Part shown: positions 29,261 through 37,959 of the stretch, piece by piece | Layout of the letters: each line of letters starts with the position of its first letter | Position numbering within the stretch: position 1 is the stretch's first letter | Assembly (NCBI GenBank): GCA_043817315.1 | Contig: JBDRGY010000004.1 | Coordinates: 797-64,796 of the forward strand | Reading direction: 5' to 3' | Length of the DNA: 64,000 bases | DNA from: Patescibacteria group bacterium | Lineage (GTDB): Bacteria > Patescibacteriota > Patescibacteriia > JBDRGY01 | The notes under the pieces: generated by a model | What the model saw: only the letters and a program-made list of their open reading frames with translations | Database searches by the model: none | What the model was told of the DNA's origin: nothing | Made by a program: the position numbers and the translations under genes

Positions 29261-30337
29261 ATGAAAGCAATTATCATGGCGGGGGGTGGGGGCACCAGGT
29301 TGTGGCCCGCCTCCAGAGCCAACAAGCCAAAACAATCCCAAAACTTATTGGGCAATAAGACCTTATTGCAGATTACCTATAAACGGGTGCTCCAGTCTTT
29401 TAATAAGAAAGATATTTATTTAACCTTAGGCCAATCACATCTCAAAGATGTAAAAAAGGAATTACCGGGGTTTACCAAGGATAATTATTCAGTTGAGCCC
29501 TCATTAAGAGACACTGCACCGGCGATAGGTCTGATAGCCGCCGTTTTAAACAAAAGAGATCCTGATTCAGCTATGGTTACTTTGAGCTCTGACCACTTCA
29601 TCAAGGACACAGCGGCCTTTACCAAAACAATGAAGATGGCTGCCAAGATTATCAATAAGTATCCTGACTACACGGGAGTTTTGGGAATTAATCCCACTTA
29701 TCCGGAAACCGGCTATGGCTACATAAATATCGGTAAAGAAATTACTAAGGTTAATAAGGAACCCGTTTTTAGTGTTAAGAGTTTTACGGAAAAGCCCGAC
29801 TTAAAGACAGCCCAGAGATATCTAAAGAGATGGGATTATTTATGGAACTCCGGAAACTTTATCTGGAAGACAGACCATTTATTGTCTTTATTCCAAAAAT
29901 ACCAACCTCAAATTTATCGCAAGTTAATGATTTTGCAGAAATATGTTGATACACCCAGATGGCCCCAGGTGCTAAAGAAGGAATACTCTACTATAAAGAA
30001 GGTGGCCATTGAATTTGCTATCTTGGAAAAAACCAAGAAGATATTCTGCATTCCCTCGTTATTCGACTGGACCGATATCGGTCATTGGCGTTCGGTTAAA
30101 GAAGTGTTATCGGATACAGCAGAGGACAACGTCATTAGGGGCCGGCATCTGGGCATTGATACTAAAGGCTCCCTTATCTATAATCTTTCGGACAAATTAA
30201 TCACCACTGCCGGAATCGAAGACATGATTATAGTTAACACCAAAGATGCCATCCTAATCTGTCCCAAAGACAAAGCCCAAGATGTTAGGGAGATAGTCAA
30301 GAAGATAAAAAAGAAGGGTTATCGCAAGTATCTATGA
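29261..30337 (+). CDS. mannose-1-phosphate guanylyltransferase-like nucleotidyltransferase
   Basis: MKAIIMAGGGGTRLWPASR N-terminal NTP-transferase motif. ManC-like length and layout. Confidence 0.7.
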   Translation: MKAIIMAGGGGTRLWPASRANKPKQSQNLLGNKTLLQITYKRVLQSFNKKDIYLTLGQSHLKDVKKELPGFTKDNYSVEPSLRDTAPAIGLIAAVLNKRDPDSAMVTLSSDHFIKDTAAFTKTMKMAAKIINKYPDYTGVLGINPTYPETGYGYINIGKEITKVNKEPVFSVKSFTEKPDLKTAQRYLKRWDYLWNSGNFIWKTDHLLSLFQKYQPQIYRKLMILQKYVDTPRWPQVLKKEYSTIKKVAIEFAILEKTKKIFCIPSLFDWTDIGHWRSVKEVLSDTAEDNVIRGRHLGIDTKGSLIYNLSDKLITTAGIEDMIIVNTKDAILICPKDKAQDVREIVKKIKKKGYRKYL

Positions 30338-31065
30338 AAAGTCAATTTCAAACCGTAGACGGTCACCGAATTGAATACTACCAGCTGGGCCAAGGACAGC
30401 CCCTGTTTTTTTTACACGGTTGGGGTGCCCGGCCAGTCGCCTATAGCCAAACCATTAAAAGATTAGCCGACCGTTTCCAGGTGATCGCTCCGGTTATGCT
30501 GGGCCATGGTCGGTCCGATCCAGTTCCTCAGGATTATAAATTTCATGATTACGCCGAGGTAGTCAACCGTTTCCTAAAAAAAATGAACCCTCAAAATCCG
30601 ATTGTAGTGGGGCATTCCTTAGGAGGAGCAGTCAGTATATATATTGTCGGACATAACTCCAGCATAAACAAACTATTTTTAGTTAATTCCTCCGGTTTAC
30701 ACATTGAAAGATCAGGCAGTCAATGGAGAAATCTATGGATCCGCAAAGCCTTATTCAATCTCAAATACCCTCACGGATGGCGCCAGCTTGCTTATTTTTT
30801 TCTTAATTCGGCCAAACATTTCTCTGATCTGAAGATATCAGCTCGTTTGACTCAGGGCCTGGATCTGGAAAATGTGCTACAATATATTAAAGTACCTACT
30901 TATTTACTTTGGGGGGATCGGGATTACTTCTTTCCGGTTGAGTATGCCCAGCGTTTTTGCCAGAAAATTCCCACCTGCCATCTGGAAATTATCAATAATC
31001 AAGGTCATGACTGGTGTTTGGTCAGGCCCCAATTATTTAGTGAAGTTTTTTCCAAATATGCCTAA
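30334..31065 (+). CDS. alpha/beta hydrolase
   Basis: GHSLGGAV nucleophile elbow. HGWGARP oxyanion region. Confidence 0.6.
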   Translation: MKSQFQTVDGHRIEYYQLGQGQPLFFLHGWGARPVAYSQTIKRLADRFQVIAPVMLGHGRSDPVPQDYKFHDYAEVVNRFLKKMNPQNPIVVGHSLGGAVSIYIVGHNSSINKLFLVNSSGLHIERSGSQWRNLWIRKALFNLKYPHGWRQLAYFFLNSAKHFSDLKISARLTQGLDLENVLQYIKVPTYLLWGDRDYFFPVEYAQRFCQKIPTCHLEIINNQGHDWCLVRPQLFSEVFSKYA

Positions 31066-32089
31066 GATAAAAAAAGTCACAATTATTATTATAGTTCTGG
31101 TCATTGTCGGAATTTTTTACCTTTTGCAATTGACCTACCAAATCAATTCTAAAAACAGTGATGCTACTGATTCCGTATTTTTTTCCATCGAGCCAGGCCA
31201 GGGCGTCAATGAGATCAGCTTCAATCTGCATGAGGCGGGATTAATCAAAAGTCAGTTTGCTTTTGAGGTTTATTTATGGTTTACCCGTTCCGAGTCAGAT
31301 TTAAAAGCCGGGGAGTTCCAGATCGGCAAAGACATGAGCACTAAAGAGGTCATTCGCATTTTAGTTGACGGTTCCAATTCCAATGAAAGCGTCATCCAAA
31401 TAATTGAAGGCTGGAGAGTTACTGAAATAGCTGAGTATTTGGCGGAGAAGGGAATTGTCTCTGCCAATGATTTTGTGGAAGCGGTATCGGTTCAGGACTC
31501 CAGAACACTTATTCCTGATAAAAATTATGATTTTCTCAGCGACCGCAGCTTGCTGGCTGATTTGGAAGGATATCTTTTTCCTGACACCTACCGGGTATTT
31601 AAAGACTCTGAGGCCGCAGACATTGTAGAGAAGATGTTGGACAACTTTGACTCCAAGCTGACCCAAGAAATGCAGCAGGAAATTGCCAAGCAGGGAAAGA
31701 CCATTTTTGAAATTGTAACCCTGGCTTCTGTTTTGGAAAAAGAATTGCGTACCGATACAGACAGAAAGATGGCGGCTGATTTATTCTACCGCCGCATTGC
31801 TGCAGGGATTCCCATGCAATCTGATGCCACAGTCAATTACGTAACCGGAAAAAGTATGTTGCAGCCTACTTATACAGACACTCAAACCGAATCTCCTTAT
31901 AACACTTATTTATATCGAGGCTTACCACCAGGTCCCATTTGTAATCCATCGCTTTCTTCAATCCAGGCAGCTATTTACCCTGAGGGTAATCAATACTGGT
32001 ATTATCTGAATAAGCCTGACGGCACCACGGTTTTCAGCAAAACTTTAGAAGAACACAATAGTAATAAGATTAAGTACTTGAGTGATTAA
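31058..32089 (+). CDS. mltG: endolytic murein transglycosylase MltG (YceG-like)
   Basis: N-terminal TM. YceG-like core ...PPGPICNPSLSSIQAAIYP. Start at internal ATG 31058 (MPKIKKV). Confidence 0.8.
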   Translation: MPKIKKVTIIIIVLVIVGIFYLLQLTYQINSKNSDATDSVFFSIEPGQGVNEISFNLHEAGLIKSQFAFEVYLWFTRSESDLKAGEFQIGKDMSTKEVIRILVDGSNSNESVIQIIEGWRVTEIAEYLAEKGIVSANDFVEAVSVQDSRTLIPDKNYDFLSDRSLLADLEGYLFPDTYRVFKDSEAADIVEKMLDNFDSKLTQEMQQEIAKQGKTIFEIVTLASVLEKELRTDTDRKMAADLFYRRIAAGIPMQSDATVNYVTGKSMLQPTYTDTQTESPYNTYLYRGLPPGPICNPSLSSIQAAIYPEGNQYWYYLNKPDGTTVFSKTLEEHNSNKIKYLSD

Positions 32090-32771
32090 AATGAAAACAA
32101 TAGTATTATCTTTAGGCGGTTCCTTGATTATCCCTAGTGATAATATCGACATCAACTACCTCAAAAAGTTCCGTAAGTTTATCTTGTCCTTGGTCAAGAA
32201 GAAATATCGAGTGATTATCGTAGCCGGTGGGGGACGGGTTAACTCCAAATATAATAAAGCAGCCCAGCAATTAGCCAGAATCAGCGATGAAGATTTACAT
32301 TGGATCGGCATCAAGGCAACACATCTTAATGCGGAACTTCTAAGGTCAATCTTTTCCCAGTGGGCTTTCCCTAAAGTGGTAGTAAATCCTACCACCAGGA
32401 TAAAAACCAATAAGCCGATAATAATTGGAGCTGGATGGCTGCCGGGCTGTTCCACGGATAAAGATGCGGTGCTCTTGGCTATCAATTTTAAAGCCAAGGA
32501 AGTGATCAATCTGACGGATGTCGATTATGTCTATGATAAAGACCCGGATAAACATAAAGATGCCAAACCGATCAAGCAGATATCCTGGCCAGAATACAAG
32601 AAAATGTTTGGTGAAGTGGTAAAACCACGAATGTCTTCTCCCTTTGACCCCGTGGCCACTAAATTGGCTTGTCACCAGGGAATCAAAGTAGTAATATTAA
32701 ACGGTCGCAAGCTGAAAAATCTGAATAATCATCTATCAAATAATAAGTATTTAGGAACAGTAATAAAATAG
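32082..32771 (+). CDS. amino-acid-kinase-fold protein, archaeal-type UMP kinase-like
   Basis: IVLSLGGSLI...VIIVAGGGRV. Length about 229 aa. Confidence 0.6.
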   Translation: MIKMKTIVLSLGGSLIIPSDNIDINYLKKFRKFILSLVKKKYRVIIVAGGGRVNSKYNKAAQQLARISDEDLHWIGIKATHLNAELLRSIFSQWAFPKVVVNPTTRIKTNKPIIIGAGWLPGCSTDKDAVLLAINFKAKEVINLTDVDYVYDKDPDKHKDAKPIKQISWPEYKKMFGEVVKPRMSSPFDPVATKLACHQGIKVVILNGRKLKNLNNHLSNNKYLGTVIK

Positions 32772-32772
32772 T

Positions 32773-33102
32773 ATGGCGGAAATCGAAAAAATTGGGGAAG
32801 AAAGTTTTATTGCTTTCGATAAGAAAAATATTTCCAAGGTACCGCATGTAGCCGGTATTATTGAGTTGGCCAATTTGGAACGAGAGGTCATCTATATTGA
32901 TTCCTCTCCGGATATCAATAAAAAACTGTTTGAATTGATTGATTCGTATGACCCTTGCCTGGATAATGCAAAATTTTACCGCATTGAAATTAATCCCGGA
33001 GTTGATCAAGGTTTATTAAAAGCTTTTCAGCGCTATAAAGAGGCTCACGAGAACCATATTCCCCGTTGCAATCGTATGGATCCCACTCGTCGAGTGAAAT
33101 AA
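32773..33102 (+). CDS. small degenerate GIY-YIG-like protein, tandem paralog 1 of 3
   Basis: SKVPHVAGIIELAN..VIYID...C...FYRIEINP...YKEAHENHIPRCNRMD. Confidence 0.55.
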   Translation: MAEIEKIGEESFIAFDKKNISKVPHVAGIIELANLEREVIYIDSSPDINKKLFELIDSYDPCLDNAKFYRIEINPGVDQGLLKAFQRYKEAHENHIPRCNRMDPTRRVK

Positions 33103-33113
33103 TACTAATTCAT

Positions 33114-33437
33114 ATGGTGGAAGTAGAAAAAACAGGCGAGAGCTACATTAGGCTCGAAGAAAAGGCCGTATCCAAAGTTCCAACTGTGGCCGGCACTTTT
33201 GTCCTAGCCGATAAAGCCAGAGAGATTATCTACATCGGCATGGCTAAAAATCTGAATAAAGCACTGATGGATACTCTCGAAGGTTACAATTCCTGCCTGA
33301 CCAAGGCCAATTACTTCCAAATTTCCATAAATCCCAACCCCAAAGAAGGAGTGACTAATCTTTTTATCGAGTACAAAGAAGAACATGGTGGCTTTATCCC
33401 TAGGTGCAATAAATACGATCTCTCTCTTGGTAGATAA
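33114..33437 (+). CDS. small degenerate GIY-YIG-like protein, tandem paralog 2 of 3
   Basis: SKVPTVAGTFVLADKAREIIYIGMAKNLNKAL...IPRCNKYD. Start at internal ATG 33114. Confidence 0.55.
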   Translation: MVEVEKTGESYIRLEEKAVSKVPTVAGTFVLADKAREIIYIGMAKNLNKALMDTLEGYNSCLTKANYFQISINPNPKEGVTNLFIEYKEEHGGFIPRCNKYDLSLGR

Positions 33438-33473
33438 TAAAAAATAATTGAAGGTAATTTAAATAACCATACT

Positions 33474-33809
33474 ATGGCAGGAATTGAAAAAATCGGTGAT
33501 GACTTTCTGCCTTTTAATGATAGGACCGTTTCCAAAGTGCCAGGCGTGGCTGGTACTTTTATCTTGGCTGATAAAGCTAGACAGATTGTCTACATCGGCT
33601 TTGGTACTAATCTGAACAAAATGTTGATGGATGTCAAAAAAACCGGCAATATGTGTTTGGGCAGGGCCAGCTTTTATCAAATTGCCATGAACCCTAGTCC
33701 GCTAGAAGGAGCAGCCCGGATTTTCTCAGATTACAAAGAGGCCCATAGCGGAATGATACCCCGCTGTAATAAGTATGATTTGTCGGTTAATATCGGCCGA
33801 TTGCCTTGA
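33474..33809 (+). CDS. small degenerate GIY-YIG-like protein, tandem paralog 3 of 3
   Basis: SKVPGVAGTFILADKARQIVYIGFGTNLNKML...IPRCNKYD. Confidence 0.55.
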   Translation: MAGIEKIGDDFLPFNDRTVSKVPGVAGTFILADKARQIVYIGFGTNLNKMLMDVKKTGNMCLGRASFYQIAMNPSPLEGAARIFSDYKEAHSGMIPRCNKYDLSVNIGRLP

Positions 33810-33810
33810 C

Positions 33811-33861
33811 CCCGTCGCTCGCGAGCGACAGGGTTGACAAGTATTTCTGACACTATATAAT
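33811..33861 (+). promoter_or_regulatory. strong hairpin plus consensus sigma70-type promoter (TTGACA-16-TATAAT) for rplJ-rplL
   Basis: CCCCGTCGCTCGCGAGCGACAGGG palindrome, then TTGACA (33834-33839), a 16-nt spacer and TATAAT (33856-33861). Confidence 0.6.
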
Positions 33862-33976
33862 TGATTTACATCTAAATAGCCGCAGACAATAGGTATCCCC
33901 TAAAAAGGGAATAAACCCTATCTAGGCAATATACCTAACAGGGTCTGTGGTTATCCACAGATTTTTTAATAATATT
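33862..33976 (+). promoter_or_regulatory. rplJ leader with attenuator-like hairpin (putative L10(L12)4 autoregulatory leader)
   Basis: About 115-nt leader ending in CTGTGG-ttat-CCACAG followed by ATTTTTT, 10 nt before the rplJ ATG. Contains TTATCCACA. Confidence 0.45.
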
Positions 33977-34498
33977 ATGGCCAAAACCAAGCAAAGAAAA
34001 AAAGAAGATATTAAGAATCTCGAAGCTAAATTTAAGGAAGCCAAGACTATTGTTTTTGTTGACTATAAAGGTCTGGCAGTCAAAGAAGTAGAAGAGTTAA
34101 GGAAGAATCTTCGCGACAATCAAATAGATTACGTAGTATCCAAAAAGTCCTTAGCCAATATTGCCGCTGAAGAAGCTGGCTATCAGGATGTGGATCTTAA
34201 GAAGTTAGAGGGTCAACTGGCCATAGGATTTGGCCAACAAGAAGTTTTGCCTGCTAAATTGCTTTATCAGTTTGCAGTGCAACACGAGTCGTTAAAGTTA
34301 CTGGCTGGTTTGGTTGATGGCAAAATGGTTGACCAAGAGAGGATTACGGCCTTGGCTCAATTACCAACCAAGGAGGAGCTATTAGCCAAAATGGTCGGCT
34401 CTATCAAGGCTCCAATTTCCGGCTTGCTCAATGTACTACAGGGAAATATGAGGTCTCTGGTTTATGCCCTCAAAGCCATAGCAGAATCAAAAAGTTAA
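33977..34498 (+). CDS. rplJ: 50S ribosomal protein L10
   Basis: MAKTKQRKKEDIKNLEAKFKEAKTIVFVDYKGLAVKEVEELRKNLR. Start at the internal ATG. Confidence 0.9.
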   Translation: MAKTKQRKKEDIKNLEAKFKEAKTIVFVDYKGLAVKEVEELRKNLRDNQIDYVVSKKSLANIAAEEAGYQDVDLKKLEGQLAIGFGQQEVLPAKLLYQFAVQHESLKLLAGLVDGKMVDQERITALAQLPTKEELLAKMVGSIKAPISGLLNVLQGNMRSLVYALKAIAESKS

Positions 34499-34523
34499 TT
34501 ATAAGTAAGATAAAGGAGTAAAT

Positions 34524-34964
34524 ATGACAGATGAATCAAAACAGGAGGAAGTTAAAGAAGAGAAAGAAGAAAAAAAGGAAGTTGAAGTTCCCGCCAAGTT
34601 TCAAGACATTGTAACCAAGATTGAAGGTCTTTCCGTGGTTGATTTGGCAGAATTGGTTACCATCCTGGAAGACAAATTTGGTGTCTCGGCTGCTGCTCCG
34701 GTAATGGCCGTGGCCCCTGGTGCCGTAGCCGGACAGGCAGAAGCAGAGGAGAAATCTTCCTTTGACGTTGAGCTAACCGAAGCCGGCGGTAATAAGATTT
34801 CCGTAATTAAAGTGGTCAGGGAAGTAACTCAAAAAGGTTTGAAAGACGCCAAGGACTTAGTTGACGCTGCCCCCAAAGTGATCAAAGAAGGGGCAACCAA
34901 GGAAGAAGCCGAAGATATCAAGAAGAAAGTCGAAGAAGCAGGCGGTCAGGTTACTCTAAAGTAG
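34524..34964 (+). CDS. rplL: 50S ribosomal protein L7/L12
   Basis: [17 protein letters not shown]...[56 protein letters not shown]. Confidence 0.9.
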
Positions 34965-35028: not shown

Positions 35029-37287
35029 TTATAGGCTGATTTGGAATAGCTTAGTTTTATTAAGTAGGTAGATTGTTGCTTCATCATCGGTAACCACAAA
35101 GTCTTTGAGTCCATCAAATTGATCCGATCGGTATTGATTTATCAACAGACCTTTTTTATCCAGTATCACTAAGCGATTATTTTCTGGATCTAGAACGTAG
35201 ATGTTGTCCAGTTCCGACCGAGTGTAGATGCGAGTGGAGTTGGATAGGGAGGGCTCAAACTGACCAAGGGTAAATTCATCTTTAGCCCCCTGGGTCAATT
35301 TCCAGATCTGGCCGTCAGCCTTTAAGACATAAATATTACCATCGATAGTTATTGAAGTTGCATCGGTCAGATCCAATTCTTCAGTTATCCAGGATTGACC
35401 AGAAGCATACCCGGTAGCAGTGGCATTGTGGCGGAAGATTTGATTATTCTTGGTGTCAAGAATATAAAGCCGTCCCGCGAAACTTTCTAAGTATCCGACT
35501 TGCTTATCTTGGTTGGCAAAGCTAATTTCTCTCTCGACCAGACTACCATCAGCCAAGGCAAATCTGGCAATCTTATCAGAATTGGTGTAGAACACAATAT
35601 AGTTATTATCCGAAGGAATAGCCTTCATCTGGAGGTTGCCGATTTCTTCCGTGGTATTAGTCACAATATCGGATTCTTTAGTCTCCAGATCATAACCGTA
35701 GATAGAATTATTATTGGGATTAAATGAATATATTTTGCCATTGATTAAAGTAATTCCTCTAACTGCAGCTCCTTCTTCGGCCGTGGCGAAATCAAACACT
35801 TCGGTAGGTTCAGTAATATTATTGATATGATTTATTTTATCTGACTTTTCTCGAATTGACTTATTAAACTGAGCAATCTGATCTTGGAATTGTTTTTTAT
35901 CCGGTAATTGGCCGACCAGATCCCGGGCAACATTGAGGATAGCCAGGGCTTTTTGGTCGTCTCCGTAGATAAGGGTGGCATCAATCTCGGCCAACTTTTG
36001 ATCAATGTCGGTAATTATCTGATTGTATTCTGTGGTTACTTTTTCTTTCTCCTGTCCCTCTCCTAGCGTAACTATGCTTTGGGCGAAACCGAATATGAGG
36101 ACAAAAGCAATGATCAGCAAGGCCTTTCTCTGAGTGGGTAGGCCCCGGAATTGTTCAATCCAGGTGGCCAGATTAACCGCCACTTTATCGGGAAAACTTT
36201 TTAGTTGCTGACGGGATGTTTTCCAGTTTTTGAAAAAGTTATAGATCCCCAAAAGTCCTTTGGTGATCAGTAGGAAGATGCCTTTGATAATATTCCAAAA
36301 AACCATGGCAATTCTTAGCAGCAGGTTGCCCTCCTTTTCTTCTTTGTATTTGGGTTCCTGGCTGGGGCGTACTTTCTCGGGATAAGATTTCTCTTCTTTG
36401 GTCTGGCGCAGGACTTTCTCATTAAAAAATGCCCTGGCCTTATCCGTGCTGGCCAGCAAGTTTTTCTTAACAGCCGGCCACAAAGAGGGGGTAAGTAATT
36501 CGGAAGTTTGTCGCTCTCTGGTTTGTAATTCGTCCATTGAAACTTGAGGAGCCGAGTACTGTGAATGTTCCAGATGGAGGGGCATATAGGTTTTCTTGGC
36601 CTCTGCTTCGGTCAGGGCATGAACGATTAGGGCGGCAAAAGTAGTTCTCTGGTTGGTATCAATCAGCAAGTTTTCAATGTAGGCGGCAGCGTCCTGAGGC
36701 CGGGAACCGGAAATTGTTCTTTTAAGTTTTTCTTGGGAGACAAAATCAAAAAGGCTGCTGGTGGCACAAAGCAAATAATCACCTTCGGCCAGCTGTCCCG
36801 AGACGATATTGGCAAATATTTTTAGAGGATTAATTTCTATTTCGGCAGGAGTTTGAGAAGCCTCCAGGATATCGACAATCTTGGGTCCGTGAATTAATAA
36901 GGCTTTCATGGTTCCCAGCTGAGTAAGGTGAAGTTCGTTATCTTTGATAACGGCGATAATAATATTCAGTTTATCCACCCAGTTGGTCAAACCGTCCTGG
37001 ATAAGTTGGTGCAGTTTTTCATTGGTTTTCTGCAGGGCGTTTTCAAAAGCAGTCTCAATGTTAAGATCAGACGATTGATAATAATGTTTTTTGACTTCTT
37101 CTTGAATGGTGTTGATGATATCCTGATTTATCCTGTCCTGGGAGTGGATGTCGGTAATAATCAGTAGTTTTCCAAAAGTGTCTTCTTCCACCGGGGTGGG
37201 ATGGGAAATATAAACATTGCCGGTTGACTGTGATTTGTCCGGGTCGTATATAAGAAACTTGTCTACAACGATAGTGGTTTTACTCAT
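35029..37287 (-). CDS. membrane protein with N-terminal PP2C-like phosphatase domain, TM helices and C-terminal beta-propeller-like repeats
   Basis: PP2C-like ...NIIIAVIKDNELHLTQLG...GDYLLCATSSLFDFVS. Two TM segments mid-protein. Repeated IYxLDxxNNxI units at the C-terminus. Start placed at MSKTTIVV (37287) rather than the listed 37404. Confidence 0.5.
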   Translation of the reverse strand: MSKTTIVVDKFLIYDPDKSQSTGNVYISHPTPVEEDTFGKLLIITDIHSQDRINQDIINTIQEEVKKHYYQSSDLNIETAFENALQKTNEKLHQLIQDGLTNWVDKLNIIIAVIKDNELHLTQLGTMKALLIHGPKIVDILEASQTPAEIEINPLKIFANIVSGQLAEGDYLLCATSSLFDFVSQEKLKRTISGSRPQDAAAYIENLLIDTNQRTTFAALIVHALTEAEAKKTYMPLHLEHSQYSAPQVSMDELQTRERQTSELLTPSLWPAVKKNLLASTDKARAFFNEKVLRQTKEEKSYPEKVRPSQEPKYKEEKEGNLLLRIAMVFWNIIKGIFLLITKGLLGIYNFFKNWKTSRQQLKSFPDKVAVNLATWIEQFRGLPTQRKALLIIAFVLIFGFAQSIVTLGEGQEKEKVTTEYNQIITDIDQKLAEIDATLIYGDDQKALAILNVARDLVGQLPDKKQFQDQIAQFNKSIREKSDKINHINNITEPTEVFDFATAEEGAAVRGITLINGKIYSFNPNNNSIYGYDLETKESDIVTNTTEEIGNLQMKAIPSDNNYIVFYTNSDKIARFALADGSLVEREISFANQDKQVGYLESFAGRLYILDTKNNQIFRHNATATGYASGQSWITEELDLTDATSITIDGNIYVLKADGQIWKLTQGAKDEFTLGQFEPSLSNSTRIYTRSELDNIYVLDPENNRLVILDKKGLLINQYRSDQFDGLKDFVVTDDEATIYLLNKTKLFQISL

Positions 37288-37392
37288 ATTTATACCTATA
37301 TTATGATACGAATATGCTTCTAAGGCAAATGGCTTGAATTTGTGGGGCAACAATATTATACTATAAATATAACAACTAATAAATGCGGGAAA

Positions 37393-37959
37393 ATGCTTGA
37401 ACACTTATTTGGTTCACGGACCAGAGTTAAATTGCTTCGATTATTTCTGTCCAATCAGGAAAGAGCCTTTTTTGTCCGGGAATTAACTCGCAAAATTAAT
37501 GAGCGTATAAATTCTGTTAGGCGCGAACTGACCAATTTAGAGAAAATAGGAATTATTATCAAGAGAACAGAGAAGAGAAAAGTTTATTACCAAGTCGATA
37601 AAGAACACATCCTTTATCAGGAATTAAGAACTTTGATCTTAAAAGCGGAAGTTGGCTTGGAGAGAAGCTTGGCCCGTACCATTAAGAATATCGGAAATGT
37701 TCGGCTGATGGTTTTAACCGGTATGTTTACCGGCATGAAAGAAGAAACCCAGACTGACATGTTAATCGTGGGTACAATTAACCGAAAAAAGTTAGCTAAC
37801 CTGATGATAAAGTTTCAGACTGACTTTGGTCGTCAGATCAACTATACCGTGATGACTTCCAAAGAATACAAATACCGCAGTGATTTAACGGACCGATTTT
37901 TATTCAACATTCTGGAGAACAATAAAGTTGTCTTGGTGGATAAGATAAATACGGAATAA
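37393..37959 (+). CDS. winged-helix transcriptional regulator-like protein
   Basis: MLEHLFGSRTRVKLLRLFLSN...FFVRELTRKIN N-terminal wHTH pattern. Start at internal ATG. Confidence 0.5.
   Translation: MLEHLFGSRTRVKLLRLFLSNQERAFFVRELTRKINERINSVRRELTNLEKIGIIIKRTEKRKVYYQVDKEHILYQELRTLILKAEVGLERSLARTIKNIGNVRLMVLTGMFTGMKEETQTDMLIVGTINRKKLANLMIKFQTDFGRQINYTVMTSKEYKYRSDLTDRFLFNILENNKVVLVDKINTE

What the first reader, a model, noticed from the sequence alone, without database searches (positions are those of the whole stretch)
32773..33809. Tandem triplication of a roughly 110-aa degenerate GIY-YIG-like protein directly upstream of rplJ
Three consecutive paralogs share a core SKVP-x-VAG(T/I)(F/I)(V/I)LA(D/N)-x4-(I/V)(I/V)YIG-x3-NLNK-xL, then C-L, then FYxI-x-NP-xxEG, then YKEAH-xxx-IPRCN(K/R)(Y/M)D. 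The core resembles the UvrC-type GIY-YIG motif (PGVYxFxD...IYVGKAKNLRxR). However the first Tyr is Phe or Ile, and the catalytic Arg is replaced, so they are probably not nucleases. The conserved C-x..H-x..C may bind metal. A triplicated non-catalytic GIY-YIG-fold protein beside the L10/L12 operon is unusual. I do not recognise this family.
Basis: partly seen in the sequence, partly recalled or inferred. Interest (0 to 1): 0.65.

Follow-up and report, generated by a model that had tools for sequence, protein, structure and literature searches.

The report
Tandem catalytically degenerate GIY-YIG mini-proteins
Three neighbouring genes in an ultra-small (Patescibacteria) bacterium encode about 110-residue copies of a DNA-cutting-enzyme fold (GIY-YIG) that have lost most of the residues that do the cutting, yet are conserved about as tightly as ribosomal proteins; what they do is unknown, and their position next to the ribosomal L10/L12 genes looks like an accident of where the ancestral gene was inserted.

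Summary
Three + strand paralogs lie at 32773-33102 (A), 33114-33437 (B) and 33474-33809 (C), 41-54% identical. AlphaFold models (pLDDT 82 and 87) match only GIY-YIG domains: UvrC N-domain and the AtGRXS16 N-terminal domain. Profile searches link them to Pfam DUF7508, an uncharacterised GIY-YIG family, but they score below its threshold.

Typical DUF7508 proteins keep the catalytic set. The 21 proteins of this Patescibacteria clade mostly or wholly lack four active-site positions. They keep the second Tyr, the Asn and an invariant Cys pair that co-occurs across the wider family.

The genes are under strong purifying selection and diverge at the rate of neighbouring L10 and PyrH. Copy number at the same slot is 1, 2 or 3 in related contigs.

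The slot lies directly after an archaeal-type pyrH. rplJ has its own perfect promoter and an L10-leader-like RNA. Sister lineages have pyrH-rplJ with nothing, or an unrelated gene, between. The link to rplJ is therefore positional.

Best reading: a domesticated GIY-YIG scaffold without the canonical active site, probably a Cys-pair-stabilised binding module. Its partner is unknown.

The parts
32773..33102 (+). Copy A (109 aa). Acidic orthogroup (pI 5.2-6.6) and the most degenerate copy: GII for GIY, YID for YIG, Lys at the Arg position, Leu at the metal-Glu position.
   Evidence: ORF and translation. Alignment. AF2 pLDDT 87.3, pTM 0.79. Foldseek top hits are UvrC GIY-YIG 1yd6 and 1ycz. Orthologs are 63-76% identical. 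Residue mapping. pI.
33114..33437 (+). Copy B (107 aa). Near-neutral orthogroup: GTF for GIY, YIG kept, Ala at the Arg position, Val at the metal-Glu position.
   Evidence: Sequence. The ATG at 33114 matches the start of all orthologs. Weak hits to Pfam GIY-YIG (E 0.04) and to NCBIfam uvrC TIGR00194 (E 1.8e-4). Orthologs are 55-69% identical.
33474..33809 (+). Copy C (111 aa). Basic orthogroup (mostly pI 7.8-9.4): GTF for GIY, YIG kept, Met at the Arg position, Ala at the metal-Glu position.
   Evidence: AF2 pLDDT 82.1, pTM 0.75, with beta-beta-alpha-beta-alpha topology. Foldseek hits 2lwf at E 3.4e-5, then UvrC N-domains. Orthologs are mostly 55-68% identical, with some pairs at 50-54%.
32082..32771 (+). 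Archaeal-type UMP kinase (pyrH). Its stop codon lies 1 nt before the start of copy A. It is the gene to which the family is tightly coupled in every locus.
   Evidence: TIGR02076 pyrH_arch scores 170 bits against a cutoff of 158. The gap from pyrH to the first copy is -7 to +10 nt in 5 loci.
29261..32089 (+). Upstream genes of the same overlapping or abutting chain: a mannose-1-phosphate guanylyltransferase-like gene, an alpha/beta hydrolase and MltG. Together with pyrH and the three copies they probably form one operon.
   Evidence: Overlapping ORF ends. Family assignments. The same gene order occurs in L001, L002 and L009.
33806..33837 (+). GC-rich hairpin that overlaps the stop codon of copy C. 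It has no T-run and is not conserved in related loci, so it is at most a weak, lineage-specific terminator.
   Evidence: Palindrome I2. Folding energy -18.5 kcal/mol, z -3.2. Not conserved in the alignment of intergenic regions.
33834..33861 (+). rplJ promoter: TTGACA, 16 nt, TATAAT (12 of 12 consensus positions).
   Evidence: Promoter scan. Both hexamers are conserved in L001, L002 and L005.
33862..33978 (+). rplJ leader RNA. It resembles the L10 leader and ends in a terminator-like hairpin (GTCTGTGG-TTAT-CCACAGA followed by T6) just before the start codon.
   Evidence: Rfam RF00557 scores 33.5 bits (gathering 44), E 7e-4, over model positions 1-138. Sequence and stems are conserved in 4 loci.
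33977..34964 (+). rplJ (33977-34498) and rplL (34524-34964). These are the neighbours named in the finding and form a separate transcription unit.
   Evidence: NF000955 L10, 153 bits. Pfam Ribosomal_L10 and L12 hits on the syntenic genes.

Best explanation

An ancestral single copy was inserted immediately after an archaeal-type pyrH, upstream of the rplJ promoter and leader, in one small Patescibacteria clade. By then it had lost the canonical one-metal nuclease site. That site comprises the first Tyr, the Arg, the His/Tyr four residues after the Arg, and the metal-binding Glu.

The gene was then duplicated in tandem into three specialised orthogroups: A is acidic, B is neutral and C is basic. 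All three are inherited vertically and are under strong purifying selection.

They are most likely expressed as the tail of the manC-hydrolase-mltG-pyrH operon, not with rplJ.

Inferred mechanism, not shown: they no longer cut DNA by the GIY-YIG mechanism. They act as non-catalytic binding modules. The former active-site cleft is now largely hydrophobic (F/I, F/M/S, M/A/K, V/T/L, A/V/L). The fold is held or regulated by an invariant Cys pair (a disulfide or shared metal). They possibly work as a hetero-oligomer of the differently charged paralogs. The ligand is unknown.
For: Fold:
- AF2 models of C and A have pLDDT 82 and 87.
- In PDB, the only hits at E <= 0.02 are the AtGRXS16 N-terminal domain and the UvrC GIY-YIG domains; the few weaker hits near E 0.2-0.6 include other GIY-YIG enzymes (Hpy188I, T4 EndoII).

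Family link:
- The clade profile finds about 130 proteins of about 100 aa. Of the 60 aligned, 52 match PF24348 DUF7508 and 27 match PF01541.
- The broader profile hits UvrC 1ycz at E 1.6e-6 and 2lwf at 2.9e-6.

Loss of the active site (UvrC numbering checked against the mutant entries Y19F, Y29F, Y43F and N88A listed):
- The 142 other aligned proteins (mostly canonical DUF7508) keep Y19 in 121, Y29 in 118, R39 in 88, His at the Y43 position in 101, E76 in 92 and N88 in 114.
- The 21 clade members have Y19 in 2, R39 in 3, His in 0 and an acidic residue at the E76 column in 0.
- They keep Y29 in 18, N88 in 19 and both Cys in 21.
- The single-copy relative in L009 also lacks Y19, R39 and E76, so the loss predates the duplications.

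Cys pair: among the distant relatives both Cys are present in 104, neither in 20 and only one in 7 (Fisher p 2e-17).

Selection and inheritance:
- pN is 0.16-0.31 against saturated pS of 0.69-0.89 in all three orthogroups.
- Identity to orthologs (mostly 55-76%) equals that of L10 (64-66%) and PyrH (64-71%) in the same contigs.

Locus:
- Copy number is 3 (window, L005, L007), 2 (L001, L006), 2 plus a deleted remnant (L002) and 1 (L009, L010), always in the same slot.
- Gaps are -7 to +10 nt to pyrH and 155-188 nt to rplJ.
- rplJ has its own promoter and leader.
- In sister lineages the slot is empty or holds another gene.

Charge: the orthogroups differ systematically in charge.
Against: - No experiment or structure shows loss of activity.
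- The closest solved structure, the AtGRXS16 N-terminal domain, also lacks the YIG Tyr, the Arg and (in this alignment) the Glu. It is nevertheless reported to have endonuclease activity (review PMC5890173, citing Liu et al. 2013). A non-canonical site could therefore remain.
- The clade has new invariant polar residues (R36, K49, E89, R97, D102 and often H91) that could form such a site.
- The mapping of the Glu rests on a local HMM alignment, not on superposed coordinates. An acidic or amide residue lies two positions upstream (E/Q in 'EG').
- Hetero-oligomerisation, the ligand and the chemistry of the Cys pair are pure inference.
- Co-transcription with pyrH is inferred from spacing only. 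Read-through into rplJ cannot be excluded.
Confidence: 0.55

Rival explanations
1. They are still nucleases (or nickases, or RNases) that use a re-wired active site. That site would be built from the retained YIG Tyr and Asn plus clade-specific residues: K49 next to the lost Arg, E78 or E89, H91, R97 and D102. The three paralogs would differ in substrate or act as a heteromeric enzyme.
For: - The AtGRXS16 N-terminal domain is the best structural match. It lacks the same canonical residues in the alignment, yet is reported to be an active endonuclease (PMC5890173).
- Y29 (18/21) and N88 (19/21) are retained, and new invariant charged residues exist.
- Strong purifying selection is compatible with an enzyme.
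Against: - Four active-site positions are lost at once and replaced mainly by hydrophobic residues.
- No acidic residue occupies the metal-Glu column in any of 21 sequences.
- The Glu two residues upstream would face a different side of the helix (inference from helix geometry).
- Copy A also changes YIG to YID.
- The proteins have small net charge (-4 to +5) and no DNA-binding extension.
Confidence: 0.2
2. They are thiol- or metal-based sensor or switch proteins on a GIY-YIG scaffold. The invariant Cys pair would be the functional centre (redox switch or metal site), by analogy with the regulatory Cys of the GRXS16 N-terminal domain.
For: - Both Cys are invariant in 21/21 clade members, while the catalytic residues were lost.
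- The two Cys co-occur across the wider family.
- The first Cys lies one residue from the single Cys of the GRXS16 N-terminal domain in the alignment. By my own count that Cys is probably the Cys123 reported to form a regulatory disulfide with the glutaredoxin domain, but the chain-to-protein numbering was not checked.
Against: - A co-varying Cys pair is equally explained by a purely structural disulfide or Zn staple.
- The His residues are not coupled to the Cys pair.
- There is no redox partner gene in the neighbourhood.
- Proximity of the two Cys in 3D could not be checked.
Confidence: 0.12
3. They are functionally tied to the L10/L12 stalk or to translation, for example as a regulator of the rplJ leader or a ribosome-associated factor. 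That would explain the conserved position next to rplJ.
For: - The copies are adjacent to rplJ-rplL in every locus that carries them.
- Their conservation is at the level of L10.
Against: - rplJ has a perfect, conserved promoter and an L10-leader-like RNA with its own attenuator downstream of the copies.
- The genes abut pyrH, not rplJ.
- The pyrH-rplJ adjacency exists without them in L018, and with an unrelated DUF5671 gene in L017.
- Distant DUF7508 relatives sit in unrelated contexts.
Confidence: 0.08
4. They are decaying remnants of a selfish GIY-YIG element (a homing-endonuclease-like gene) that landed in an intergenic region, and they have no cellular function.
For: - GIY-YIG domains are typical of mobile elements (PMC1564403).
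- Catalytic residues are lost.
- Copy number varies, and one copy is an internally deleted 49-aa remnant in L002.
- A distant relative lies in a variable region with toxin-antitoxin, M78-peptidase and RHS genes.
Against: - Open frames are intact in all loci, with pN far below pS.
- Divergence equals that of housekeeping neighbours.
- The locus is fixed and there are no flanking repeats.
- Clade-specific invariant residues were gained.
- There are no phage or defence-family hits.
Confidence: 0.05

Closest known systems
Pfam DUF7508 (PF24348): uncharacterised stand-alone proteins of about 100 aa in the GIY-YIG superfamily
   Same: - Same size and stand-alone architecture, alignable end to end.
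- Shared VP-x3-G, (I/V)Y(I/L)G, the Cys after helix 1, Y-x3-H and the C-terminal P-x-C-N.
- The clade profile retrieves these proteins at E down to 5e-13.
- One ortholog (P0021) carries a precomputed PF24348 hit.
   Different: - The window proteins score only 15.6-17.7 bits against a gathering score of 26.
- They lack the GIY Tyr, the Arg, the His after it and the Glu that most DUF7508 proteins keep.
- They have an extra conserved N-terminal peptide and their own invariant residues (R36, K49, NP, G79, E89, D102).
- They occur as 1-3 tandem copies at one fixed locus, whereas sampled DUF7508 genes are single and scattered.
N-terminal GIY-YIG domain of UvrC (PDB 1ycz, 1yd6)
   Same: - Same fold: Foldseek probability 1.00, TM 0.54-0.69, rmsd 2.4-3.2 A over about 84-92 columns in most hits.
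- The sequence motif LP-x2-PGVY ... IY(I/V)GKA-x-NL-x2-R is recognisably related.
   Different: - UvrC is a protein of about 600 aa with UvrB-binding, EndoV-like and HhH domains. These proteins are the bare domain.
- Y19, K32, R39, Y43 and E76 of UvrC are replaced.
- UvrC has no Cys pair.
N-terminal domain of Arabidopsis glutaredoxin AtGRXS16 (PDB 2lwf)
   Same: - Best structural hit for copy C (E 3.4e-5, 100 aligned columns).
- The only PDB sequence hit that covers the whole domain, including the C-terminal G-x-(I/V)-P-x-x-N.
- It also lacks the canonical Arg and other catalytic residues.
- It has a Cys within one residue of the family's first Cys.
   Different: - 12-17% identity.
- It is fused to a glutaredoxin domain in a plant plastid protein.
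- It has only one Cys at this site (Gly replaces the second).
- It is reported to be an active endonuclease regulated by an inter-domain disulfide.
GIY-YIG homing endonucleases (I-TevI type) and phage GIY-YIG endonucleases
   Same: The catalytic-domain fold is the same.
   Different: - There is no C-terminal DNA-binding (NUMOD-type) domain.
- There is no intron, intein or phage context.
- Inheritance is vertical and the catalytic residues are lost.
- PHROG hits are only marginal (E 0.004 or worse).

Membership tests
GIY-YIG nuclease superfamily (fold level) | A three-stranded sheet flanked by helices, in the order beta1-beta2-alpha-(alpha)-beta3-alpha, similar to solved GIY-YIG domains. | tested here: met
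   AF2 secondary-structure order. Foldseek hits at E <= 0.02 are exclusively GIY-YIG domains. In BFVD, every named protein among the best hits is a GIY-YIG protein.
GIY-YIG nuclease superfamily (active enzyme) | First motif Tyr ('GIY'; UvrC Y19). | tested here: not met
   I, F and F in copies A, B and C. Tyr in only 2 of 21 clade members, against 121 of 142 distant relatives.
GIY-YIG nuclease superfamily (active enzyme) | Second motif Tyr ('YIG'; UvrC Y29). | tested here: met
   Tyr in all three copies and in 18 of 21 clade members. The Gly is Asp in copy A and its orthologs.
GIY-YIG nuclease superfamily (active enzyme) | Conserved Arg in helix 1 (UvrC R39, I-TevI R27). | tested here: not met
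   K, A and M in copies A, B and C. Arg in 3 of 21 clade members (type A orthologs only), against 88 of 142 distant relatives.
GIY-YIG nuclease superfamily (active enzyme) | Metal-binding Glu (UvrC E76, I-TevI E75). | tested here: not met
   L, V and A at the aligned column. No acidic residue in 0 of 21, against Glu in 92 of 142 distant relatives. The mapping comes from a local HMM alignment, not from superposed structures.
GIY-YIG nuclease superfamily (active enzyme) | Conserved Asn of motif E (UvrC N88). | tested here: met
   The Asn of IPRCN is present in all three copies and in 19 of 21 clade members.
GIY-YIG nuclease superfamily (active enzyme) | Metal-dependent cleavage of DNA. | not testable with these tools
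   This needs a biochemical assay.
Pfam DUF7508 (PF24348) | Score at or above the Pfam gathering threshold (26 bits). | tested here: not met
   15.6, 17.7 and 17.5 bits (E 0.019-0.004). One ortholog, P0021, has a precomputed PF24348.2 hit.
Pfam DUF7508 (PF24348) | Homology to bona fide members shown by profile search. | tested here: met
   The clade profile retrieves about 130 proteins at E < 1e-3. Of the 60 aligned (three of them the window copies), 52 match PF24348, best E 4e-18.
UvrC / Cho excinucleases | UvrB-binding domain, C-terminal EndoV/RNase H-like nuclease domain and HhH. | tested here: not met
   The proteins end 10-15 residues after the GIY-YIG-like domain (107-111 aa). NCBIfam uvrC matches cover only model positions 3-38 and score 11-20 bits against a cutoff of 285.
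GIY-YIG homing endonucleases | C-terminal DNA-binding module, and residence in introns, inteins or mobile DNA. | tested here: not met
   No extra domain. Fixed chromosomal locus with divergence equal to that of housekeeping neighbours. No flanking repeats.
rplJ-rplL (L10) operon | Location downstream of the operon's promoter and L10 leader. | tested here: not met
   The promoter (33834-33861) and the leader-like RNA (33862-33978) lie downstream of copy C.
Known anti-phage defence systems / phage protein families | Match to PADLOC or PHROG models. | tested here: not met
   No PADLOC hit for A, B or C. PHROG hits are only marginal, E 0.008 or worse.

The most novel reading that the evidence does not exclude
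The three differently charged paralogs, which lack the canonical GIY-YIG active site, assemble into a hetero-oligomer. This complex has acquired a new function that this streamlined Patescibacteria lineage needs. Examples would be a Cys-pair-dependent (redox or metal-sensing) nucleic-acid- or protein-binding factor, or a re-wired nuclease with a non-canonical active site. Either would make them the first characterised case of a GIY-YIG scaffold repurposed as a multi-subunit non-nuclease.
Probability: 0.12. Interest if true: 0.6.

Novelty: new variant of a known kind. Interest (0 to 1): 0.36.

Why it matters
GIY-YIG domains are known almost only as nucleases in repair, recombination, restriction and homing. 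Here a clade of them has lost most of the canonical one-metal active site. Up to three specialised paralogs are nevertheless kept in very small genomes, under constraint similar to that on ribosomal protein L10. This would be a clear natural example of a GIY-YIG scaffold reused for something else.

It also gives a handle on DUF7508, an uncharacterised family. The Cys pair is conserved independently of the catalytic residues, which suggests it is a structural or regulatory element of the whole family.

The practical weight is limited. The clade is tiny: about ten contigs among 15 billion proteins. The organisms are uncultured and no function can yet be assigned. The apparent link to the L10/L12 operon, which made the finding look unusual, does not hold.

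Tried and rejected
- **Rfam at gathering thresholds.** Only a tRNA was found elsewhere in the window. The L10 leader appears only below threshold.
- **NCBIfam on the three proteins.** Only sub-threshold UvrC and DEDD-exonuclease N-terminal matches were found.
- **PADLOC and PHROGs.** Nothing usable.
- **Literature.** No paper mentions DUF7508, and none combines GIY-YIG with 'pseudonuclease'. Liu et al. 2013 on the GRXS16 N-terminal domain is not held, so its catalytic-residue assignment could not be read.
- **Genome and metagenome scans.** The GTDB genome scan returned one locus and the metagenome scan four. Their patterns came from the N- and C-terminal peptides only.
- **Spurious profile hits.** Four giant proteins ranked high in the deep search (P0024, P0038, P0078, P0100). 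P0024 is a T/S/N-rich repeat protein whose score sums many weak 'C..F.I.VNPTP' matches, and P0038 has only one short weak stretch. The other two have no single stretch passing the domain threshold and were set aside on that basis. None is taken as a homolog.
- **The TTG start at 33066 for copy B.** Rejected: it overlaps copy A, and all orthologs start at the M-x-E-V-E peptide.
- **A C-C-H-H zinc site.** The two His are not coupled to the Cys pair. The first His corresponds to the active-site position UvrC Y43 (I-TevI H31 from my own knowledge) and is absent from the clade.
- **Recent gene conversion among copies.** Paralogs within a genome (38-59% between B and C) are no more alike than orthologs between genomes.
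- **Contexts of distant DUF7508 genes.** They gave no common theme.
Full report
**1. Observation**

The window carries three consecutive + strand genes: 32773-33102 (copy A, 109 aa), 33114-33437 (copy B, 107 aa) and 33474-33809 (copy C, 111 aa). The mechanical ORF list starts B at a TTG at 33066, which overlaps A. All orthologs begin at the M-x-E-V-E peptide, so ATG 33114 is the start.

A is 41-42% identical to B and C. B and C are 54% identical. There are 38 invariant columns. The window holds no further copy. rplJ (33977-34498) and rplL (34524-34964) follow.

**2. Source and relatives**

The three proteins are identical to hypothetical proteins ABIB97_02915, 02920 and 02925 of an NCBI 'Patescibacteria group bacterium' MAG, on a 137-kb contig. 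Among 5.8 billion proteins only 23 close homologs exist, on about ten short contigs.

An exhaustive HMMER search of 1.84 billion cluster representatives added five intermediate proteins (P0025-P0029, E 1e-30 to 1e-19). It also found about 125 distant proteins of about 100 aa. Four giant proteins high in that list are not homologs. P0024 is a repeat protein that sums many weak matches, and P0038 matches over one short stretch only. The other two have no stretch passing the domain threshold.

**3. Fold and family**

AlphaFold2 models of C (pLDDT 82, pTM 0.75) and A (pLDDT 87, pTM 0.79) have the order beta-beta-alpha-(alpha)-beta-alpha.

- Against PDB, the only hits at E <= 0.02 are the N-terminal domain of Arabidopsis GRXS16 (2lwf) and the GIY-YIG domains of UvrC (1yd6, 1ycz and its point mutants).
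- Against viral models, every named protein among the best hits is a GIY-YIG endonuclease or GIY-YIG-domain protein.

By sequence, the window proteins give only sub-threshold hits:

- Pfam DUF7508: 15.6-17.7 bits against a cutoff of 26.
- Pfam GIY-YIG: copy B only, E 0.04.
- NCBIfam uvrC N-terminus: copies B and C only.

Of the 60 aligned family proteins, 52 match DUF7508 and 27 match GIY-YIG. A profile of the enlarged family hits UvrC 1ycz at E 1.6e-6 and 2lwf at 2.9e-6. No paper mentions DUF7508.

The proteins are therefore a divergent offshoot of an uncharacterised GIY-YIG family.

**4. Active site**

GIY-YIG enzymes cut by a one-metal mechanism (PMC3664794 abstract). The superfamily signatures are the two Tyr motifs, a conserved Arg and a metal-chelating Glu (PMC9071465), plus a usually conserved Asn (PMC1564403).

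I mapped UvrC Y19, Y29, K32, R39 and Y43 by hmmalign, and E76 and N88 through the local alignment. The numbering agrees with the PDB mutant entries Y19F, Y29F, Y43F and N88A listed.

| UvrC position | Copies A / B / C | Clade (n=21) | Other aligned relatives (n=142) |
|---|---|---|---|
| Y19 | I / F / F | Tyr 2 | Tyr 121 |
| Y29 | Y / Y / Y | Tyr 18 | Tyr 118 |
| K32 | S / M / F | not counted | not counted |
| R39 | K / A / M | Arg 3 | Arg 88 |
| Y43 (His in DUF7508) | L / T / V | His 0 | His 101 |
| E76 | L / V / A | acidic 0 | Glu 92 |
| N88 | N / N / N | Asn 19 | Asn 114 |

In 68 of 131 full-length distant relatives all five of Y19, Y29, R39, E76 and N88 are present together.

The single-copy relative in L009 already lacks Y19, R39 and E76, so the loss predates the duplications. 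The replacements are mostly hydrophobic.

The clade gained its own invariant or nearly invariant residues: R36, K49, N73-P74, G79, E89 and D102 (copy C numbering). It also gained a conserved N-terminal peptide, M-x-E-[IV]-E-[KQ]-x-G-[DE].

I conclude that the canonical nuclease site is gone. This is an inference from sequence and is not proof of inactivity. The GRXS16 domain also lacks several of these residues in the alignment, yet is reported to be an endonuclease (PMC5890173 citing Liu et al. 2013). The original paper is not held.

**5. Cys pair**

Both Cys (C61 and C98 of copy C) are invariant in 21/21 clade members. Among distant relatives they occur together in 104, are both absent in 20, and occur singly in only 7 (Fisher p 2e-17, not corrected for phylogeny). 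The His of Y-K-E-x-H is present in 16/21 and is not coupled to the Cys pair.

The pair thus behaves as a unit, either a disulfide or a shared metal site. It was kept when catalysis was lost. In the alignment the first Cys lies one residue from the only Cys of the GRXS16 domain in this region. By my own count that Cys is probably the Cys123 reported to form a regulatory disulfide. This is a lead, not a test.

**6. Evolution**

The copies fall into three orthogroups:

- A: 62-76% identity between genomes, pI 5.2-6.6.
- B: 51-69%, near neutral.
- C: mostly 55-68%, mostly pI 7.8-9.4.

B and C are closer to each other than either is to A. Within each group pN is 0.16-0.31 while pS is 0.69-0.89, which is saturated. 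Where dS is calculable, dN/dS is about 0.09-0.15. L10 and PyrH from the same contigs are 64-71% identical to the window's versions. The genes therefore evolve like vertically inherited housekeeping genes.

Copy number at the same slot:

- 3 in the window, L005 and L007.
- 2 in L001 and L006.
- 2 plus a 49-aa in-frame internally deleted remnant of A in L002/L003.
- 1 in the more distant L009/L010.

B and C within a genome are no more alike than orthologs between genomes, so there is no sign of concerted evolution.

**7. Locus and transcription**

The first copy starts -7 to +10 nt from the stop of an archaeal-type UMP kinase (TIGR02076, 170 bits against a cutoff of 158). That kinase overlaps mltG, which overlaps an alpha/beta hydrolase, which overlaps a manC-like gene.

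The last copy is 155-188 nt from rplJ. That spacer contains three elements:

- A perfect TTGACA-16-TATAAT at 33834-33861, conserved in three other loci.
- A leader of about 117 nt that matches Rfam L10_leader over its full length below threshold (33.5 against 44 bits, E 7e-4).
- A conserved terminator-like hairpin just before the ATG.

A GC-rich hairpin at the end of copy C (-18.5 kcal/mol) is not conserved.

In sister Patescibacteria the same pyrH-rplJ-rplL-(large minus-strand gene) synteny exists in two other forms. L018 has nothing in the slot (160 nt), and L017 has an unrelated 136-aa gene with a faint DUF5671 hit.

The adjacency to rplJ is therefore inherited from an older pyrH-rplJ junction into which the gene was inserted. 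The copies are most probably the tail of the upstream operon. Distant DUF7508 genes lie in unrelated contexts: a region with HEPN/NTase, M78-peptidase and RHS genes, or among small hypothetical or metabolic genes. There are no PADLOC or meaningful PHROG matches.

**8. Explanation and rivals**

Best supported (0.55): a domesticated DUF7508-type GIY-YIG scaffold without the canonical active site, stabilised or regulated by its Cys pair. It was amplified into three specialised and differently charged paralogs, and acts by binding rather than cutting. A hetero-oligomer is possible and the ligand is unknown.

What is shown: the fold, the family link, the residue losses, purifying selection, vertical inheritance, the variable copy number, and the separate rplJ promoter and leader. 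What is inferred: loss of activity, operon membership, the role of the Cys pair and oligomerisation.

Rivals:

- A re-wired active nuclease (0.20), kept alive by the GRXS16 precedent.
- A thiol or metal switch (0.12).
- A stalk- or translation-linked factor (0.08), weakened by section 7.
- A decaying selfish remnant (0.05), contradicted by section 6.

**9. Novelty and score**

This is a new, catalytically degenerate variant of a known superfamily. It hangs off a Pfam DUF, in a very small uncultured clade. It is a tidy example of a GIY-YIG fold that has lost its catalytic residues, and it hints that the Cys pair is the conserved core of DUF7508. There is no function yet, and the feature that made it look odd (the rplJ neighbourhood) is explained away. 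Interest is 0.36.

Noticed in passing
window 33834-33978: rplJ has a perfect sigma-70 promoter (TTGACA-16-TATAAT). It is followed by a leader of about 117 nt that matches Rfam L10_leader RF00557 over the full model but below threshold (33.5 against 44 bits). The leader ends in a conserved hairpin plus T6 just before the ATG. This looks like a divergent Patescibacteria version of the L10 leader or attenuator.
   Followed up: partly
window 32082-32771: The UMP kinase is of the archaeal type: TIGR02076 scores 170 bits against a cutoff of 158, while the bacterial model scores only 68 bits. Relatives at 50-59% identity include Woesearchaeota, Nanoarchaeota and Bathyarchaeota MAGs as well as Parcubacteria and Falkowbacteria.
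   Followed up: partly
L018 1116-1275; L017 4202-4612: The slot between pyrH and rplJ is variable. It is empty (160 nt) in L018. In L017 it holds an unrelated 136-aa gene whose product looks like a membrane protein and has a faint DUF5671 hit. The GIY-like genes are therefore one of several insertions at this junction.
   Followed up: yes
L002 5836-5985 (= L003 1800-1949, L004 3444-3593): In one relative, copy A is reduced to a 49-aa ORF that matches profile positions 1-28 and 89-107. This is an in-frame internal deletion of the whole GIY-YIG core, while B and C stay intact.
   Followed up: partly
L004 / L002 (contig JAIWBS010000012.1): The 13-kb contig is titled 'Pirellulales bacterium isolate SFP3_RM_35'. 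It nevertheless has the same Patescibacteria gene order and 64-80% identical PyrH, L10 and L12, so it was probably mis-binned into a planctomycete MAG.
   Followed up: no
window 35029-37404 (- strand): A 791-aa ORF converges on rplL and has no NCBIfam hit. Its syntenic counterparts (750-761 aa where complete) are present in every related locus, including the sister lineages that lack the GIY-like genes, and have no Pfam hit on record.
   Followed up: no
window 33159-33272 and 33519-33632: Copies B and C share a 114-nt stretch at 76% nucleotide identity over the SKVP..YIG..NLNK core, well above their overall similarity. This could reflect selection on the core or an old partial gene conversion.
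   Followed up: no
window 33806-33837: A strong GC-rich palindrome (-18.5 kcal/mol, z -3.2) spans the stop codon of copy C and runs into the -35 box of the rplJ promoter. It is not conserved in related loci.
   Followed up: partly
window 33977-34964 and flanks: rplJ-rplL stand alone. pyrH and the GIY-like genes lie upstream where many bacteria have rplK-rplA, and a convergent unknown gene lies downstream where many have rpoB-rpoC. The comparison with other bacteria rests on general knowledge. The same arrangement holds in all related loci.
   Followed up: no
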